IMG/VR virus record: IMGVR_UViG_3300043313_001220
Location: 1 to 64,000 of that record
Direction: 5' to 3' (one strand)
DNA length: 64,000 nt
Source of the DNA: a virus
The notes under the pieces are model-generated. The model did not search any database. It was not told where the DNA came from and worked only from the letters and a program-made list of their open reading frames with translations. The position numbers were made by a program, and so were the translations under genes. How positions within the stretch are numbered: position 1 is the stretch's first letter; each line of letters begins with the position of its first letter. Shown one piece after another: positions 28,180 through 51,858 of the stretch.

Positions 28180-29124
28180 TCACAACACGGTGGGGGCCTG
28201 TGGCGCACCATCATGCCGGGTGTGGGGCCGATCCTTGCGGCCGTAGAGCAGATATTCGATCGCACTCGCCCCACCGGAACCACCCGGGCCGCCCTTACCG
28301 AGCAGCTCCGCGATCCGGATGTACGACCACCCCAGGCGGATGCTGGCCTGCCGGGCGATCTCCCGCTGCACCGGCCGCGGGTAGTCCGCCGCTTTCCCCG
28401 GCCTGGGGTCGCGCAGTGCCCCATCGACCAGCTGGGACACCTCCACCCAATCGTCGGTGTCCGGCGGCGGCGGCAACGGCTGTACATCCGGGTCGTCGAT
28501 GTCCTCATCTGCCCAGCGTTCCGGACCCAACCACCCCCGGGCCAACGACTGCCGGGCGGTGGCATCGGACGGCCCCCGGGGGTCGGCCAACGATTGGATC
28601 TTGTCGTACAGCAGCCGGTACTTCTCATGCAGGGCGAAGACCAGCAGGGAACACCCGACAGCGAGGCGATGCCGCCGGATCATGCTGACGTTGACGCCGG
28701 TGAGGGCCGCGATCTCCTCGGTGCTCCAGCCATCGACCGCAAGAGCACGCAACCGCCGACTCGTACCGACCAGCGGGACCCAACTGGTCGGGCTGGCAGG
28801 CAGTGCCAGACAAGCCGCGGCGGTCACACCGAGCAGAGCCCCAGCCACCGGGCGGCTCAATCGGCGACCCGCGAGGAGCCTGCTGATCGAATGGCGACCC
28901 ACCCCCGCCACCGTGTTGATCCGGTCCCCGGTGACTCCGGGGACCTCCAACAACCCCCGGACGTGTCGGAGCACCGGCCCCAGCTCGTCATCCCCGAGCA
29001 CCGCACTATCCCAGACGCCCGCGGCTACCGCCGCCCGCCGGGTCTGCTGATGCCGGCGCGAACGGTCCCGGCACTCCGGGCAGCCCGCGGTGTAGTCCGT
29101 ATGGCCGTAGCAGTAGGCGCGCAT
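28180..29124 (-). CDS. multi-HTH DNA-binding protein
   Basis: GCPEC, GTSRRLRALAVDGWS and W.DEDIDDP motifs seen in actinophage HTH proteins. Confidence 0.65.
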   Translation of the reverse strand: MRAYCYGHTDYTAGCPECRDRSRRHQQTRRAAVAAGVWDSAVLGDDELGPVLRHVRGLLEVPGVTGDRINTVAGVGRHSISRLLAGRRLSRPVAGALLGVTAAACLALPASPTSWVPLVGTSRRLRALAVDGWSTEEIAALTGVNVSMIRRHRLAVGCSLLVFALHEKYRLLYDKIQSLADPRGPSDATARQSLARGWLGPERWADEDIDDPDVQPLPPPPDTDDWVEVSQLVDGALRDPRPGKAADYPRPVQREIARQASIRLGWSYIRIAELLGKGGPGGSGGASAIEYLLYGRKDRPHTRHDGAPQAPTVL

Positions 29125-29735: not shown

Positions 29736-29754
29736 CGCGTGGGTGTCTCCTGCC

Positions 29755-30133
29755 GGATCGGGGTGGGGTGGGTAGGCATGTCGTGTGGAGTCGACGAGGA
29801 CTTGGGTAGGGGTGGGCGGCGCTGTCGTGGGTTTAGGCTCGGGGCTGCTTGGCTTGTCGCCATGTGGGTGGGCCTGGGTTGTCGGGGAATGGGCACGGGT
29901 AGGGAAGGCTTGGCATGTCGAGCCGGATGGAGGGGTCAGGACCGGAAAGTCGTTGAGTGGGGCAGGCATGGGCTGACCTGGCTTGGCAAGTCGGACGGTT
30001 GGGGATCGGATTGTCGCAGGGGGGGGAAGGGACGTGGACTGTCGTCGGGTCAGGCCCGGTCGGTGCGGGGTCGGTGTGTCGTACGGGGGGCAGGTCAGAA
30101 CTGTCGCGCGATGTGGCCGGGATTGGTTTGTCA
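29755..30133 (-). repeat. pentamer-periodic array 1, 12 units (C/T)GAC-(NNNNC)n
   Basis: Anchors 23-44 nt apart; 54 of 61 in-register pentamers end in C (hand count); directly downstream of the RAMP gene. Confidence 0.9.
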
Positions 30134-30135
30134 GA

Positions 30136-30166
30136 CGGGGGCGGGTCGCCGCAGCGCCCGCCCCCG
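30136..30166 (-). other. 10-bp GC hairpin between the RAMP stop codon and array 1
   Basis: CGGGGGCGGG-N11-CCCGCCCCCG. Confidence 0.75.
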
Positions 30167-30175
30167 GTTGGTCGA

Positions 30176-30922
30176 TCAGGCCGCCGCGACAGCCTTCTCC
30201 TTCTTACCCTCGCCGATCTGGTCCCACTGGGTGACGGTATACCGCCCGTAGCCCTGGCTGCGGCTGGCACCGATCCCCTGCTGGCCGCCGGTCACCCAAA
30301 TGGTCGCCCATTCTTTCTGGGTGAAGTCGTAATCGCTGATCACCGTGAACCCGACGACAGCGTCATCGACATACTCGGTGTACTGGATGCCGGTCTGGCG
30401 GGTGATCGGGTTGCGCGGGAACGACTGGAGGATGCCGGACGGCTCCAGGACCGCCTCGATCTTCTTCGTGTCCGCGCTGCGCTGGCCGACAAACAGCTTG
30501 TCCTCCAGCACGACGATGTGCTCGGCGATGAACGACAGCGTCCCCTTCTTGGTCGCGCCGTAACGCGCCGGGAGGTTGTCGACGGCGCGGGCGACCGACG
30601 CGGCCTCCTTCAGAGCGGCCTTCAGATGACGGCCTTCGATGTACAGGCCGTCCTGCGGGTCGCGCTTGAAGCCGTTCAGGTGGCGACGCTTGTCGACCTC
30701 CTTCAGCGCCTCATCCTCAGTGACACCGCGGGCGGCCATGACCTCGGCGACCGCCTGGGCGATGATGTCCTCCTTGTCGAGGCCCATCTTGCTCTTCAGC
30801 CAGCCCTCGGCGACCTTCGGGTCGGACGGGGTGCCGCCCATCAGTCGCTCGATCTGGATCTCTCCGGCGAACCGGAACGGGTAGACCCGGTTGATGTCAG
30901 CGGCGAACACATTCTTGGCCAT
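30176..30922 (-). CDS. solitary RAMP-superfamily (Cas7/Csm3-like) protein, 248 aa
   Basis: beta1+Gly IERLMGG; LYIEGRHLKAALKEA (cf. IPGSSLKGxLR); TEYVD..FTV; C-terminal G-rich loop GIGASRSQGYGRY; RBS AGAGAGGG. Confidence 0.8.
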   Translation of the reverse strand: MAKNVFAADINRVYPFRFAGEIQIERLMGGTPSDPKVAEGWLKSKMGLDKEDIIAQAVAEVMAARGVTEDEALKEVDKRRHLNGFKRDPQDGLYIEGRHLKAALKEAASVARAVDNLPARYGATKKGTLSFIAEHIVVLEDKLFVGQRSADTKKIEAVLEPSGILQSFPRNPITRQTGIQYTEYVDDAVVGFTVISDYDFTQKEWATIWVTGGQQGIGASRSQGYGRYTVTQWDQIGEGKKEKAVAAA

Positions 30923-33876: not shown

Positions 33877-35219
33877 CGCAGTTTGGCCGCCAATGCCTGC
33901 ATCTGTGCGACGGTGGCCAGCTGCCGGTCGACCCTGAACTCTTCGTGCAGCATCCGGTCGATGTCGGCGGTTTTAAGCTTTTTCATCCCCGCCGCCCCAA
34001 GCAGCTGCATCATCGCATCCTTGCGCGCCTGTGGGTCGTCGGTGGCCGCGATCTGCTCCTCCGGCTCACCGTCCTCCCACGGCGCGCTGACCGCCGGCAG
34101 GGTCGTCGACGCCTCTGGAGTGGCCTCCGGGTCAGCGGGAGGGTCGAGCAGGGCCTCGGATTCCCCCGGGTCCTCCTGCCAAGCTTCCTGGACATCCAGG
34201 CGGGCGTCACGGGCCTTCTTCGTATCGATCCGGGCCTGCGCCCGCTGGGCCTCCGACTCCTGCGTGCGCTGGGCGGTCAGCACCTGCTGGCGGGCCTGCC
34301 AGGCGTCGATCAGCTGCTGGTGGTCGCCGGTCTCCTTGATCCTCTTGCGGATCCCAGCCATCTCCGCGTTGGTCGTGGCCTTCGCGATCGCCTCCAGCGC
34401 CTTCGGGATGTTGGGGGCGGGAGGCACGGGGGGCACGGGGGGCACGGGAGGCACGGGAGGCACGGTGGCCGGAGCCGCCTCGATTGCCGTGGCGCGGGAG
34501 GGTTCGATGGCCGCCCGCATGGCAGCAGCCTGCTGGTCGCGGCCAAGCTGCAACACGGTGCTGACCGCGTCTGAGCCGACCTGCACCGTTCGGGAGGTCA
34601 CCCCGTCTAACAACAGGATCGGCACGTTGTAATCTTTGGTGACCACTTTTCTCTCTTTGCGGTCGTATTGGCGGGACTCGCGGTTCTCCAGCAACAAGCG
34701 GGCGGGCAACGGCATGCGGATGCCCGCGATCATGTCGAACAGCTGGACCATCTCGCCGGCCGCATAATACCCATGGGTCTCAAGCCCCCACACACCCAGG
34801 CCCGGCACGTCGGCCAAAAGCAAATCGACCCGGGTGGTCGGCTTACATCTCCGAGTTTCCGGGTCGCAGTCACAAGTGTCCCCATAGATCTGGTCCTGAA
34901 CGCCGTCACAGCGGCGGCTGCACACGCCACCCGACCACAGCTCGTATGTCGGGTCAACAATCTGGGGAGGGATGAAGACTGGAATCAGCGCCGCATCGGT
35001 CACCACCTGCCACTGCTTGCCCCGGGGGGCGTCCGCCCATACCTCCATCTCTCCACCGTAGAGCGCTGCCACCTCTTCCACGAGGTGCTGGGCCGCACTT
35101 GTAAAGCGCAGAGTATCCAACCGGCTGGGCCGTTCCTTGCCCGAGCTGGTCTTGACCTTGCGGCCCAGCCGGATGCGGCCCACCCGTACTGAGCGGATCT
35201 GGAGGTCTCGAATGGCCAT
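33873..35219 (-). CDS. Gp3-like (recombination directionality factor-like) protein, putative recombinase
   Basis: VGRIRLG..RP..LDT.RFTS, RRCDG, CKPTTR and W.LETHG; (PPV)5 linker. Confidence 0.7.
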   Translation of the reverse strand: MAIRDLQIRSVRVGRIRLGRKVKTSSGKERPSRLDTLRFTSAAQHLVEEVAALYGGEMEVWADAPRGKQWQVVTDAALIPVFIPPQIVDPTYELWSGGVCSRRCDGVQDQIYGDTCDCDPETRRCKPTTRVDLLLADVPGLGVWGLETHGYYAAGEMVQLFDMIAGIRMPLPARLLLENRESRQYDRKERKVVTKDYNVPILLLDGVTSRTVQVGSDAVSTVLQLGRDQQAAAMRAAIEPSRATAIEAAPATVPPVPPVPPVPPVPPAPNIPKALEAIAKATTNAEMAGIRKRIKETGDHQQLIDAWQARQQVLTAQRTQESEAQRAQARIDTKKARDARLDVQEAWQEDPGESEALLDPPADPEATPEASTTLPAVSAPWEDGEPEEQIAATDDPQARKDAMMQLLGAAGMKKLKTADIDRMLHEEFRVDRQLATVAQMQALAAKLR

Positions 35220-35757
35220 CCCATTGCTCCTTCTTCTCGGTGTAGTCAATGAAGCGCTCCCGGTGGCGCTCAAAGCGCCCCAGGAGCCGATTGCAAGGTG
35301 TGCACAGGACGCCCCTGACGCACTTACCGCACGTGCGCTTACCCGGACAGCAGCTGTGATCGTGGTCGACCGGGAATCGCGGGGCCCCGGGTTCCCCGCT
35401 CGACATCTCGCCACAGATCGCACAGCCGCCACCCTGCGCGGCCAGCAACGCATCGTAGTCCTCGGGGGTCAGGCCATATCGCCTCAGTGTGATCCGCCGG
35501 CTGAGGGCCACCCGACGCTCTTGGTTCGTAATAGCCCACGCGCGCTGAGTGGCCGCCCTGCGCTCCGGGTTCGCGGCCCTCCATGCGCGGTTGGTGGCCG
35601 CTACGCGCTCCAGATTTGCGGTTGCCCATGCGCGGTGGGTGGCTGCGCGACATGCCCTACATTGGGACTCCAGCCCGTCCCGACCGGTCTTGCGCTTGGA
35701 AAACCCCCCGAGCCCCTTCGTCTCCCCGCACTTGCTACAGCGTTTCGTCTCTTCCAT
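34954..35757 (-). CDS. endonuclease VII-family protein
   Basis: CSKCGE, RYGLT..Y..L...QGG.CAIC, VDHDH and VRGVLC..CN. Confidence 0.85.
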   Translation of the reverse strand: MEETKRCSKCGETKGLGGFSKRKTGRDGLESQCRACRAATHRAWATANLERVAATNRAWRAANPERRAATQRAWAITNQERRVALSRRITLRRYGLTPEDYDALLAAQGGGCAICGEMSSGEPGAPRFPVDHDHSCCPGKRTCGKCVRGVLCTPCNRLLGRFERHRERFIDYTEKKEQWDGHSRPPDPLSTGGPHPAGPQGQDQLGQGTAQPVGYSALYKCGPAPRGRGGSALRWRDGGMGGRPPGQAVAGGDRCGADSSLHPSPDC

Positions 35758-35772
35758 CTTTCACCTCCTGGG

Positions 35773-36131
35773 GGGTCGTCGTGTGGAACGGGCCGGTTAG
35801 TCGTGTGGTCTGGGCCGGTGTCTGACGGCCTCGGAATGTCGGCGGGATTGGACGGTACTGGGTGGGCAAGTCGGGCGGCGTACGGGTTGGCAAGTCGATA
35901 AGAACGGATTCGCAGGGTCGTGCGGGCTGGGCGGACTTGTCCGGGGCTGGCATGTCGGCGCGGGAGGGGGGAGGGGGGGAATGTCGGGCTGTGCGGGTTC
36001 GCGGGCGGATGGCCGGGAATGTCGTACGGGCGGGCTGGGATTGCGACGGAGGGGCAAGTCGGTGCGGCGGGGTGTGGATGGGGAAGTCGGGTTGGGACGC
36101 ACCGGTGGGGTTCGGGTTGTCGGGTTGGTCA
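35773..36131 (-). repeat. pentamer-periodic array 2, about 13 units
   Basis: Same grammar; the first anchor is the TGA stop of the upstream gene; ends at the RBS of the endoVII gene. Confidence 0.9.
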
Positions 36132-36497
36132 GCGCGTCGGCGGTTTGGTGAACGAACCGGAGATGTTAATCCCGTCCGCCAGGGCATCCAACAACAGGGT
36201 GAGTTTCAAGCTCGCGGCCATTCCCGCGTACATCGTGGCCCGGCGCTCGACGATGTTGATGCCGGCATTGTACTCTTTGAGCTTCGGGTCGTCACCGGCC
36301 CAGGAATAGGCGACCGATGCGGGGTCGACGGTCAGGTAGGGGGTGGCCTCGCCCTGCTGTGCGGCCTTCAGCTCGATCTGCTCAGTGCGCCGTCTGCTCC
36401 GCTCCCGGAGCTTGACCGACTCCTGCTCGTAGTGTGTGGCCAGCCGATCATATTCGACAGCCCACATCCGGGTGTCGTCGCGATCTGCGGGGGTCAT
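36129..36497 (-). CDS. hypothetical protein
   Basis: GAGGAGG RBS; follows a promoter. Confidence 0.65.
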   Translation of the reverse strand: MTPADRDDTRMWAVEYDRLATHYEQESVKLRERSRRRTEQIELKAAQQGEATPYLTVDPASVAYSWAGDDPKLKEYNAGINIVERRATMYAGMAASLKLTLLLDALADGINISGSFTKPPTR

Positions 36498-36533: not shown

Positions 36534-36573
36534 ACCATACCACGGGCCACACCACGTGGCAAGCAGCGTGTCA
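36534..36573 (-). promoter_or_regulatory. promoter TTGCCA-N17-TATGGT with TGACAC box
   Basis: TGACACGCTGC-TTGCCA. Confidence 0.7.
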
Positions 36574-50610: not shown

Positions 50611-51858
50611 GGACAAACCAGGCCAGTGCGCCTCCCGACTAGCCAGTTCGTACCACACGACAAGCCTGCCCCCCTCGCATCCGCTGCACACCGACAAGTC
50701 GTGCCGCCGCAAGCCCAGCCCACCCCCCGCTCGCCGACACATCTAGCCGTACCACACGACAAGCCTGCCCAGTGCAATGCCGCCCAGCCTTGACGACACC
50801 CCAGACCGACATATGCCCGACTGTTCACATCCACCCTACCGCCGTCCGACACCGCACGCCACACCCTCGCGCTCCGTACGACCAACCTCTCCGAATCTTG
50901 CCGACGCGCACGACATGCCGCTCTCGACACCGCCCGACCCGCACCGACACAGCACGCCGGTCCGACCCAACCGACACGCCCGGCCACCGCAGGACTCACG
51001 ACAGATCTGCCCAGCGCTCACCCATGCGACTACCCGTCCCACAGCTGGTCGGCCCCTACCCCGACACCCGACATGGCCCATCTGTCCCAGCCGCCCGACA
51101 TGCCATCCCAGCCGAGTCCTCCCCGACACTCCACCCTCAGCCGCAACGCCCCGAGACGACAGATCTGTTCCGCCCACCCCATGTGACTACCCTGCCCGGC
51201 CCTGCTCCAATATCGACTACCCGACGCAACCCCAGAGCCCCCGCTGACATATCCAGCCCGCCCGCCCCAGGCGACCAGCCACCCCAGCTCCTGTGTCGAC
51301 AACCCGATCGGCGTCACGCCAGACCCAACCCGACGACAGCCCAGACCCGCACTGTCTTACCCCGTGCTCGGACCGCCCATCCCACCCGACAAGCCCACCC
51401 GGGCCGGTACAACCCCAGCCGTGCCCCACCCCCCGACTACCCTACACACCCCAGTGCGGATCCGACACGCCATCTCATCGCACCGCCGCCGACTACCCCG
51501 GCCCTTCGTGCCCTGTCTCCGACGACCCGTGCCATCCGACAAGCCCAGCCGCGCCGATGCAACCCCACTGCGACCATCCATCCCGCGTCATTGCGGGCCC
51601 GACACGCCATCCCTGGCATCCCCGACCCGGTACCGACAAGCCCAGCCGCCGCGCTTCATATCGACAAGCCGACCCACGCCACCCCGTGTCCTCTCCCGGC
51701 CCGTCCGACAGTGCGTCCCCACGCCGCCCAGTGGCTTCCCCACCCATCCCCCATGGCACGCCCGATCAAAGCGGCGTACTGACGAGCCCGTCCCCACCCG
51801 GCCCCCCGACAAGCCGAGCGAACTCCAACCCAGCCCCTACGACAACCCGCTGGACCGA
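50611..51858 (+). repeat. pentamer-periodic array 3, about 39 units (putative ncRNA array)
   Basis: Same grammar throughout; internal 23-bp duplication at 50649-50671 and 50748-50770. Confidence 0.92.

What the first reader, a model, noticed from the sequence alone, without database searches (positions are those of the whole stretch)
35773..36131. Satellite array 2 exactly fills a stop-codon-to-RBS gap
Seen: about 13 units (main anchor spacings 22-38 nt), C-rich on the coding (minus) strand. The first anchor TGAC is the stop codon of the upstream gene, and the array ends at the AGGAGG of endoVII. Inference: guide units are embedded in polycistronic early mRNA and would be excised from it, or protein binding could regulate the downstream nuclease gene.
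Basis: partly seen in the sequence, partly recalled or inferred. Interest (0 to 1): 0.72.

Follow-up and report, generated by a model that had tools for sequence, protein, structure and literature searches.

The report
Phage guide-RNA array between two genes
The 359-base gap between two phage genes is a real non-coding array of about 12 short units written in five-base steps, most likely guide RNAs for the phage's own CRISPR-like (VIPR-type) protein; the kind was published in 2026, and this branch is built on C instead of G.

Summary
Window 35770-36131 (minus strand) is 50% C. It starts in the TGA stop codon of a 122-aa gene and ends one base before the AGGAGG of an endonuclease VII gene. It holds 13 CGAC/TGAC anchors, 22-38 nt apart. 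After each anchor the sequence runs in five-base steps: C is at step position 5 in 50 of 53 pentamers (shuffles 27.1 +/- 3.3, 0 of 5000 reach it). The same grammar fills three other gene gaps in this complete 94-kb actinophage. One of these abuts a lone 248-aa gene whose model folds like Cas7/Csm3 (Z 11.4). In about 47-51 of 55 viral contigs with a homologue, a CGAC+(NNNNC)n array abuts that gene on the same strand and often runs to its ribosome-binding site, so the C-rich strand is transcribed. My best reading (about 0.65) is a dispersed guide-RNA array of a VIPR-type system (bioRxiv 2026), co-transcribed with the recombination-gene operon. It departs from the published type: a C scaffold instead of GGY, a 5' CGAC anchor instead of a 3' tail, and 3-7 pentamers per unit. 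No target was found, and processing and protein binding are untested. This scan has noted C-type VIPR arrays before, in this genome and in other actinophages. Verdict: a new variant of a known kind.

The parts
35770..36131 (-). Array 2. It has 13-14 anchors ([C/T]GAC) and 11 full units of 22-38 nt. Each unit is CGAC, then a semi-conserved first pentamer (WWKCC), then 2-6 further NNNNC pentamers, then a 0-, 3- or 4-nt tail.
   Evidence: C at pentamer position 5 in 50 of 53 (z 6.9).
36132..36497 (-). Upstream 122-aa hypothetical gene. RBS GAGGAGG at 36509-36503. Its TGA stop (36131-36129) is inside the first anchor.
   Evidence: Homologue in L056. No Pfam or PHROG family (searched from residue 5).
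36534..36562 (-). Candidate sigma-70-like promoter, TTGCCA-17-TATGGT with a TG extension. It lies in the gap after the exonuclease gene and could drive the 122-aa gene, array 2 and endonuclease VII.
   Evidence: A consensus match only.
35764..35769 (-). AGGAGG ribosome-binding site of the endonuclease VII gene, one base after the last C of the array.
34957..35757 (-). Endonuclease VII gene directly downstream of the array.
   Evidence: Pfam PF02945, E 8e-20.
30179..30922 (-). The genome's only Cas7-like RAMP gene (Vipr-like, 248 aa), about 4.85 kb downstream of array 2 on the same strand. Its own promoter, TTGACA-N17-TATGCT, is at 30994-30966.
   Evidence: AF2 model pLDDT 80.7. Foldseek top hits are Csm3/Cas7, E 7e-7. 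VIA Z 11.4 to Csm3 9g9a_D. Single copy in the genome.
29745..30175 (-). Array 1, with the same grammar. It fills the gap from the RAMP gene's stop to the RBS of a RuvC-like gene.
   Evidence: (C5 in 51 of 58, z 6.6). RuvC-like is phrog_159.
50611..51858 (+). Array 3, the largest (about 37-50 units), with the same grammar on the + strand. It fills the gap before an adenylosuccinate-lyase-like gene.
   Evidence: (C5 in 149 of 180, z 10.2).
40150..40266 (-). Array 4, a mini-array of 4-5 units. It also begins with a TGAC whose TGA appears to be the stop codon of the ORF that runs into it.
   Evidence: The stop-codon reading was made by eye and the upstream ORF was not checked.

Best explanation
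Array 2 is a dispersed guide-RNA array of a VIPR-type system (a lone Cas7-like 'Vipr' protein plus pentamer-coded RNAs). Shown: the tract is non-coding and C-rich. It is written as CGAC + (NNNNC)n units. It has the same grammar as the arrays that abut the RAMP gene in this genome and across the protein's family. It fills a stop-to-RBS gap on the sense strand. Inferred: it is transcribed with the 122-aa gene and endonuclease VII, from the candidate promoter at 36562 or by read-through. The RAMP made from 30922-30179 then polymerises on the RNA, one protomer per pentamer, holding the constant C (often CC) and exposing the three variable letters. The register is set from each 5' CGAC anchor. The RNA is cut at or near the anchors. 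GA|C fits the RR|CNU preference of actinobacterial RNase E, and a cut at the last anchor would leave endonuclease VII with a short leader. The resulting 3-7-pentamer ribonucleoproteins would bind foreign DNA (rival phages, satellites or host genes) by gapped pairing and silence it, as shown for the G-based SUSP1 system.
For: (1) Anchored five-base register: C5 in 50 of 53 pentamers, z 6.9. The phase is set downstream of CGAC (C at +8, +13, +18 in 98%, 87%, 83% of units) and is weaker upstream. Tail lengths are biased to 0, 3 and 4 (47 of 56, p 0.002). (2) Strict units cluster at only four intergenic sites of the complete 94,374-bp genome. (3) The genome has one RAMP gene with a Cas7/Csm3 fold and no Cas1. 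(4) The RAMP family has over 1100 members. In 55 IMG/VR loci, 51 have a C-phased array within 1.5 kb on the gene's strand; about 47 have one of at least 250 nt within 700 nt. Only 6 have a G-phased array. CGAC is the commonest 4-mer in front of phased runs in 28 of 31 loci (tied or second in three), and C5 is 55-94% (29 of 31 at 71% or more), even where overall C is only 35-40%. (5) In at least 8 relatives the last anchor lies within about 10-15 nt of the RAMP gene's RBS, and in several more within about 25 nt, so the C strand is the transcribed one. SUSP1 vrRNAs are likewise on the vipr strand. (6) The sense RNA folds worse than its shuffles (-66.4 against -76.3 +/- 4.7 kcal/mol, z +2.1), as expected for a protein-coated single strand. 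(7) The syntenic contig L056 keeps the array in the same place. End units are about 95% identical and the middle units are replaced. In the conserved units I saw substitutions only at positions 1-3. (8) Published VIPR biology provides the mechanism. (9) All 8 RR|CNU motifs in array 2 are anchors (PMC10641625).
Against: There are no RNA or protein-binding data. No target was found under 13 pairing rules in the phage's own genome, 5 rules in 0.9 Mb of related loci or 3 exact IMG/VR scans. Units are short: 3-7 pentamers, or 2-6 if the first belongs to the handle, so each carries only about 6-21 informative letters. That is much less than the 9-16 pentamers of published vrRNAs. There is no structured 3' tail. 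The scaffold letter is C, not GGY. The protein shows no significant sequence match to SUSP1 Vipr (hhalign E 0.023, probability 2%; profile against PDB sequences). The RNase E fit holds for array 2 but is weak in arrays 1 and 3 (5 of 9 and 5 of 13). A long C-rich untranslated tract should also load Rho, which the model does not explain.
Confidence: 0.65

Rival explanations
1. The array is a cis-acting RAMP-binding leader, not a trans guide. The RAMP coats the C-phased intercistronic RNA. This controls translation, stability or read-through of endonuclease VII (and, in relatives, of the RAMP gene itself), for example by hiding the RBS or by shielding the tract from Rho or RNases.
For: The array ends one base before AGGAGG. 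In most relatives the array is the 5' leader of the RAMP gene, an autoregulatory layout. Units are very short for specific DNA targeting. No targets were found. The C-rich, unstructured RNA looks like a Rho loading site.
Against: Pure binding sites would not need three freely varying letters per pentamer, hundreds of non-identical units, or unit-by-unit turnover between relatives. Arrays of 0.3-2 kb are large for a regulatory leader. Four arrays sit in front of unrelated genes. The published relatives act in trans.
Confidence: 0.15
2. The guides are made from the opposite (G-rich) strand. They would then be NNNNG/NNNGG-type vrRNAs, as listed in the 2026 paper, each followed by a short 3' GTCG tail and transcribed antisense to the operon.
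For: The reverse complement reads (GNNNN)n + GTCG, which gives the published order of repeat tract then 3' tail and a published G-based motif.
Against: No promoter-like site was found on the + strand around array 2. All four arrays are C-rich on the sense strand of their operons. In relatives arrays run to the RAMP gene's RBS, which leaves no room for a separate or divergent promoter. C-phased arrays lie on the gene strand whether they are upstream or downstream of the gene. SUSP1 vrRNAs are co-oriented with vipr.
Confidence: 0.08
3. The tract is a Rho-utilisation (rut)-like C-rich spacer, or a compositional spacer, with no role for the RAMP.
For: C 50%, G 19%, about 360 nt untranslated and less folded than shuffles. 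These are the classical features of Rho loading sites (established knowledge).
Against: This does not explain the strict anchored five-base register (z 6.9), the conserved CGAC anchor across a protein family with 27-59% identity to the window's protein, or the near-universal linkage to a Cas7-like gene.
Confidence: 0.05
4. It is a DNA-level element: iterons of a replication origin, partition sites, or another double-strand-binding-protein array among the replication and recombination genes.
For: The short motif CCGACWTKCC is repeated 7-8 times near exonuclease, endonuclease VII and RuvC-like genes.
Against: A 5-nt register with a single invariant C is not a duplex-binding periodicity. Spacings of 22-38 nt are irregular. 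No AT-rich unwinding region or inverted repeats were seen. The strand asymmetry always follows transcription direction at all four sites. The same grammar is tied to an RNA-binding RAMP.
Confidence: 0.03
5. The tract is translated, as a proline-rich ORF such as 35735-36187 (150 aa) or 35797-36102 (101 aa).
For: Open frames cross the tract. This is expected in C-rich DNA, which has few stop codons.
Against: The periodicity is 5, not 3: C autocorrelation at lags 3 and 6 is negative. The ORFs overlap both flanking genes. The L056 orthologue differs by non-triplet indels and whole-unit replacements.
Confidence: 0.01

Closest known systems
VIPR systems (Vipr RAMP + vrRNA), best studied as type II of Escherichia phage SUSP1. 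Sources: bioRxiv 10.64898/2026.04.26.720920, 10.64898/2026.04.26.720927 and 10.64898/2026.10.15.759431.
   Same: Phage-borne. A lone small Cas7-like RAMP with a glycine-rich loop and no Cas1 or other cas genes. Non-CRISPR arrays of tandem pentamers with constant scaffold letters and variable letters. Arrays lie on the same strand as the RAMP gene (checked in SUSP1 itself). Guides can lie away from vipr (the published 'solo' vrRNAs). The published 'staggered' arrays have abutting or 1-nt-overlapping units; here the anchor's C often doubles as the last pentamer's C.
   Different: The constant letter is C (NNNNC, often NNNCC) on the transcribed strand, not GGY. There are three variable letters per pentamer instead of two. 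A 5' CGAC + WWKCC anchor replaces a structured 3' tail. Units have 3-7 pentamers instead of 9-16. Four arrays totalling about 70-80 units are dispersed as intercistronic spacers of unrelated operons. The protein is 248 aa against 195 aa. In a weak G-loop alignment the guanine-contacting D177 and W178 of SUSP1 Vipr correspond to Ala and Ser. No vap partner gene was identified, and no target is known. The published 'NNNNG' variant could be this clade read from the other strand; I could not check the paper's tables.
CRISPR class 1 crRNA-Cas7 backbones (Csm3, Cmr4, Cas7 of types I, III, IV and VII)
   Same: The RAMP's predicted fold is closest to Csm3/Cas7 (Z 11.4; Foldseek E 7e-7). A 5' handle sets the register of a protein filament along the RNA.
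   Different: There are no identical 24-48-nt direct repeats, no spacers and no Cas1, Cas2, Cas5, Cas6 or Cas10. The periodicity is 5 nt and is written into the RNA itself, rather than a 6-nt step imposed on any spacer.
Rho-utilisation (rut) sites
   Same: Long, C-rich, G-poor, unstructured, untranslated RNA.
   Different: rut sites have no anchored five-base register, no conserved CGAC punctuation and no linkage to a RAMP gene.

Membership tests
VIPR system | A lone small RAMP (RRM core, G-loop, thumb) without other cas genes | tested here: met
   AF2 model pLDDT 80.7. The top 31 VIA hits are all CRISPR RAMPs, best Csm3 at Z 11.4. Foldseek E 7e-7. Conserved loop GIGASRSQGYGRY. One copy in the genome. 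No Cas1. Neighbouring genes are a RuvC-like gene (phrog_159) and an ORF read by eye as a methyltransferase (not searched), not cas genes.
VIPR system | The protein belongs to the Vipr clade by sequence or phylogeny | tested here: inconclusive
   hhalign of the family profile against SUSP1 Vipr aligns only the G-loop region (E 0.023, probability 2%). BLASTP found nothing. The profile against PDB sequences, which include 36pp (SUSP1 Vipr), gave no hit. The paper's tree and tables are not held. RAMPs are known to share little sequence.
VIPR system | Tandem pentanucleotide repeats with constant scaffold positions and hypervariable positions | tested here: met
   C at position 5 in 94% and at position 4 in 74% of pentamers; positions 1-3 are variable. 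The same holds family-wide.
VIPR system | Scaffold letters GGY (or the published NNNGG, YNNNG or NNNNG) on the transcribed strand | tested here: not met
   The sense strand is C-based. Evidence that the sense strand is the RNA. The feature would be met only if the antisense strand were the RNA (rival 2).
VIPR system | vrRNA of 9-16 repeats followed by an invariable structured 3' tail | tested here: not met
   Units have 3-7 pentamers and abut each other. The only constant element is a 5' CGAC(WWKCC). The sense RNA is less structured than shuffles. No Rfam family or ribozyme was found.
VIPR system | Arrays flank the vipr gene | tested here: met
   Array 1 abuts the RAMP gene. About 47-51 of 55 related loci show the same. 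Array 2 itself lies 4.85 kb away with identical grammar, so it is a dispersed array.
VIPR system | An accessory vap gene next to vipr | tested here: inconclusive
   No conserved partner was seen. The RuvC-like neighbour recurs in only one related locus, 6 kb from the gene. This was not examined systematically.
VIPR system | The RNA is expressed, co-purifies with the protein and guides gapped DNA recognition | not testable with these tools
   No RNA-seq or biochemistry is available. Target searches were negative.
CRISPR array | Near-identical direct repeats of about 24-48 nt separated by unique spacers, usually with cas1 and cas2 | tested here: not met
   TRF finds only a 22-nt 1.9-copy repeat and small simple repeats in the tract. 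The constant element is 4-9 nt. No Cas1.
Rho-utilisation site | A C-rich, G-poor, unstructured untranslated RNA of at least about 80 nt that loads Rho | tested here: inconclusive
   The composition and low structure are met. Rho loading cannot be tested. The register and anchors are not explained by this class.
Replication-origin iterons | Repeated duplex-binding sites of about 17-22 bp, in helical phase, next to an AT-rich unwinding element | tested here: not met
   The shared core is only about 9-10 nt, spacings of 22-38 nt are irregular, GC is 0.64-0.72 throughout and there is strong strand asymmetry.

The most novel reading that the evidence does not exclude
The array is a dual-purpose intercistronic module of a C-coded VIPR branch. 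Its guides are only 3-7 pentamers long and carry three informative letters per pentamer, which would need a pairing rule different from the published two-letter, one-skip code. The host RNase E would cut them out of operon mRNA at GA|C. The same cuts and the RAMP coat would mature the downstream mRNA's 5' end and shield the C-rich tract from Rho. Guide production and operon expression would thus be coupled.
Probability: 0.22. Interest if true: 0.8.

Novelty: new variant of a known kind. Interest (0 to 1): 0.55.

Why it matters
VIPR systems were described only in 2026 and all characterised examples use a GGY scaffold. If this array is confirmed, it would show three things. First, the protein-RNA grip of this guide class can be rewritten in nature, here to C with a 5' anchor. 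Second, guides can be much shorter than the characterised ones. Third, guides can be stored as spacers between ordinary genes of a phage operon rather than in a dedicated locus. That would widen where such guides should be sought: any C-phased stop-to-RBS gap in actinophages. It would raise a testable question about the pairing rule with three variable letters. It would also offer an orthogonal scaffold for programmable DNA binding. For annotation, such gaps should not be called proline-rich ORFs or 'satellite DNA'.

Tried and rejected
1. Close relatives in the phage collection: blastn of the region found only a 67-nt endonuclease VII match. tblastn of the RAMP found one cyanophage.
2. Single-sequence structure prediction failed (pLDDT 33.6). 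It was redone with an alignment.
Exact junction scans in IMG/VR and GTDB genomes found nothing, as did an endonuclease VII locus search in IMG/VR. Only one syntenic orthologue (L056) was obtained.
4. A strict consensus-promoter scan around 30 related arrays found nothing on either strand. It is uninformative.
5. Target prediction failed. Thirteen position/skip rules against the phage's own genome and five against 0.9 Mb of related loci gave best-match identities equal to shuffled guides. Three exact-pattern IMG/VR scans gave 0 hits: 21 letters under the rules NNN with skip 0 and with skip 1, and a 20-letter NN skip-1 pattern from array 3. The pairing rule is unknown and exact matching is strict, so this is weak negative evidence.
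6. Rfam at a permissive threshold found no family in any array.
7. Sequence links to SUSP1 Vipr were not significant.
8. The idea that first pentamers ATG/TTG/ATT mark start codons of targets was considered and dropped. Arrays 1 and 3 do not show it.
9. A G-quadruplex or i-motif reading was considered and dropped. Only position 5 is invariant family-wide, and position 4 varies from 16% to 84% C.

Full report
OBSERVATION. On the minus strand the tract runs from 36131 to 35770. Its first four letters, TGAC, contain the TGA stop (36131-36129) of a 122-aa ORF. That ORF has its ATG at 36497 and the RBS GAGGAGG. Its last letters are CGACGACCCCCC, followed at once by AGGAGG (35769-35764) and, after 6 nt, by the ATG (35757) of a gene that matches Pfam Endonuclease_7 at E 8e-20. 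The tract is 50.5% C and 18.6% G. GC skew on the + strand reaches +0.51. CGAC occurs 13 times, plus one TGAC, with spacings of 33, 28, 37, 38, 29, 37, 23, 24, 32, 38 and 22 nt. The anchor count alone is only modestly unusual: 13 against 7.9 +/- 2.0 in dinucleotide-preserving shuffles, with 53 of 5000 reaching it.

GRAMMAR. The strong signal lies behind the anchors. When each unit is cut into pentamers starting after CGAC, position 5 is C in 50 of 53 pentamers and position 4 is C in 74%. Positions 1-3 vary. Shuffling within units gives 27.1 +/- 3.3 (z 6.9, 0 of 5000). The phase is set downstream of the anchor: C at +8, +13 and +18 in 98%, 87% and 83% of 60 units. It is weaker upstream. The first pentamer is semi-conserved (WWKCC), which gives the core CGAC[AT]T[GT]CC seen 7 times here. 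The leftover between the last full pentamer and the next anchor is 0, 3 or 4 nt in 47 of 56 units (p 0.002). With 4 nt left over, the anchor's C completes a pentamer. There is no period-3 signal.

GENOME CONTEXT. The window is part of a complete 94,374-bp virus record with terminal repeats. Strict units, defined as [CT]GAC(NNNNC) with three or more pentamers, are twice as common as in block shuffles. They cluster at four intergenic sites only: 50611-51858 (+), 29745-30175 (-), array 2, and a mini-array at 40150-40266 (-). All four are C-rich on the sense strand of the flanking genes. Arrays 1-3 fill the gap from a stop codon to the next RBS. Array 4 starts at what appears to be a stop codon; its downstream end was not examined. 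The flanking genes of array 2 belong to a recombination and replication operon. It comprises an exonuclease (phrog_298), the 122-aa gene, the array, endonuclease VII, a Gp3-like gene and an HNH endonuclease. The primase/polymerase has relatives only in phages of Gordonia, Mycobacterium, Corynebacterium and Rhodococcus, so this is an actinophage.

THE PROTEIN. Array 1 starts right after a 248-aa gene (30922-30179) that has its own TTGACA-N17-TATGCT promoter. The gene has no Pfam or PHROG family. A model built with 56 homologues reaches pLDDT 80.7. Its best structural matches are all CRISPR Cas7-type RAMPs: Csm3 9g9a_D at Z 11.4, rmsd 3.7 over 161 residues, then type VII Cas7, Cmr4 and Csf2. Foldseek gives E 7e-7. 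It is the only copy in the genome, and there is no Cas1.

FAMILY-WIDE LINK AND STRAND. The protein has more than 1100 database relatives. In 55 IMG/VR loci that encode one (27-59% identity), 51 carry a C-phased pentamer array within 1.5 kb on the gene's own strand. By a stricter reading, about 47 have an array of at least 250 nt within 700 nt. G-phased arrays occur in only 6 loci. In 28 of 31 arrays examined, CGAC is the commonest 4-mer in front of phased runs; it is tied or second in the other three. C at position 5 is 55-94% (29 of 31 at 71% or more), even where overall C is 35-40%. Position 4 varies from 16% to 84%. So the invariant code is CGAC + (NNNNC)n. In at least 8 relatives the last anchor sits within about 10-15 nt of the RAMP gene's RBS, and in several more within about 25 nt. 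That leaves no room for a promoter, so the gene must be transcribed through the array, and the C-rich strand is RNA. Array 2 has the same layout in front of endonuclease VII. Around array 2 the only promoter-like sites are on the minus strand (36562-36534 and 36295-36267), and no terminator was found.

COMPARISON WITH THE LITERATURE. VIPR systems pair a small ancestral RAMP (Vipr) with vrRNAs made of 9-16 YNNGG pentamers and a structured 3' tail. One protomer binds each pentamer, the GGY letters are held by the protein, and the NN letters pair with DNA, skipping every third target base. The result is transcriptional silencing of rival phages and satellites. Variant motifs (NNNGG, YNNNG, NNNNG), staggered arrays and solo vrRNAs are mentioned. 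I located the SUSP1 locus myself. The gene vipr is at 28474-29061 (-), its residue numbering agrees with the paper, and GGYNN runs lie on the same strand. PDB entry 36pp is that protein. The family here shows no significant sequence similarity to it. A weak alignment of the G-loop places Ala-Ser where SUSP1 has the guanine-contacting D177 and W178. This is suggestive only.

ORTHOLOGOUS LOCUS. One metagenomic contig (L056) keeps the synteny: exonuclease end, 122-aa gene homologue, array, endonuclease VII, Gp3-like gene. It also carries an extra endonuclease VII paralogue. Its array has about 10 units. The first two and last three or four units are about 95% identical to the window's. The middle units are different, and the window has about 110 nt more. 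Within the conserved units I saw base changes only at pentamer positions 1-3. The last 13 codons of the upstream gene travel with the array even though the upstream gene differs. Among relatives whose RAMP genes are 85-92% identical, the arrays are only about 65-70% identical. The flanks are mosaic too, however.

RNA PROPERTIES. The sense RNA folds less well than its shuffles (z +2.1). The antisense RNA is not unusual (z -1.0). No Rfam family matches any array. The anchor GA|C[AT]T fits the RR|CNU preference of mycobacterial RNase E for single-stranded, C-rich RNA (PMC10641625). All 8 such motifs in array 2 are anchors, but only 5 of 9 in array 1 and 5 of 13 in array 3 are. This is a hypothesis for processing, not a result.

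TARGETS. No matches above shuffled-guide controls were found in the phage's own genome (13 rules) or in the related loci (5 rules), and three exact IMG/VR scans found nothing. The absence of self-targets agrees with published VIPR behaviour. The failure to find foreign targets leaves guide function unproven.

VERDICT. The tract is a real, non-coding, pentamer-coded array. It has the same grammar as the arrays tied to the phage's lone Cas7-like gene. The best reading is a dispersed VIPR-type guide array transcribed within the operon (about 0.65). The main rival is a cis-regulatory RAMP-binding leader (about 0.15). An antisense G-type reading is unlikely (about 0.08). It is not a new kind of system, and this scan has already reported C-phased VIPR arrays in this genome and in other actinophages. 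Relative to the published systems it is a distinct variant in four respects: a C scaffold, a 5' anchor, very short units, and storage in stop-to-RBS gaps of unrelated genes.

Noticed in passing
window 40150-40266 (-): A fourth mini-array of 4-5 CGAC/TGAC + (NNNNC)n units. Like array 2, it begins with a TGAC whose TGA appears to be the stop codon of the upstream ORF.
   Followed up: partly
window 36132-36170 (-) and L056:1217-1256: The last 13 codons of the gene upstream of array 2 (...ISGSFTKPPTR*) are conserved with the array in L056, where the upstream gene is a different protein (an extra endonuclease VII paralogue). The exchanged module therefore seems to start inside the coding region.
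   Followed up: partly
window 34954-35222 (-) and L056:2059-2339: The endonuclease VII ORF (267 aa) overlaps the start of the Gp3-like gene by about 270 nt in another frame. The same long overlap is present in L056. This may be a real overlapping pair or a frameshift product.
   Followed up: no
window 35535-35643: A 45-nt repeat (2.4 copies, 75% match) inside the N-terminal part of the endonuclease VII gene encodes a repeated 15-residue motif of the type W-A-x-x-N-x-E-R-x-A-A-T-x-R-A.
   Followed up: no
window 30120-30175 (-): A 9-10-bp GC-only hairpin (GGGGGCGGG...CCCGCCCCC) with no T run lies between the RAMP gene's stop and the first good units of array 1. It may be an attenuator or a processing signal.
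   Followed up: no
window arrays 1-4: Each array is a long, C-rich, G-poor, untranslated and unstructured RNA, which are ideal Rho loading features, yet each sits in front of genes that must be expressed. How read-through is secured is unexplained; a RAMP coat is one possibility.
   Followed up: no
window 34418-34465: A 9-nt repeat (5.3 copies) encodes (PPV)n inside the Gp3-like gene.
   Followed up: no
L039:9491-9933 and L046:2052-3013: In two related viral contigs the pentamer array next to the RAMP gene is G-phased on the gene's strand, meaning it is inverted relative to the gene. These are exceptions to the co-orientation rule.
   Followed up: no
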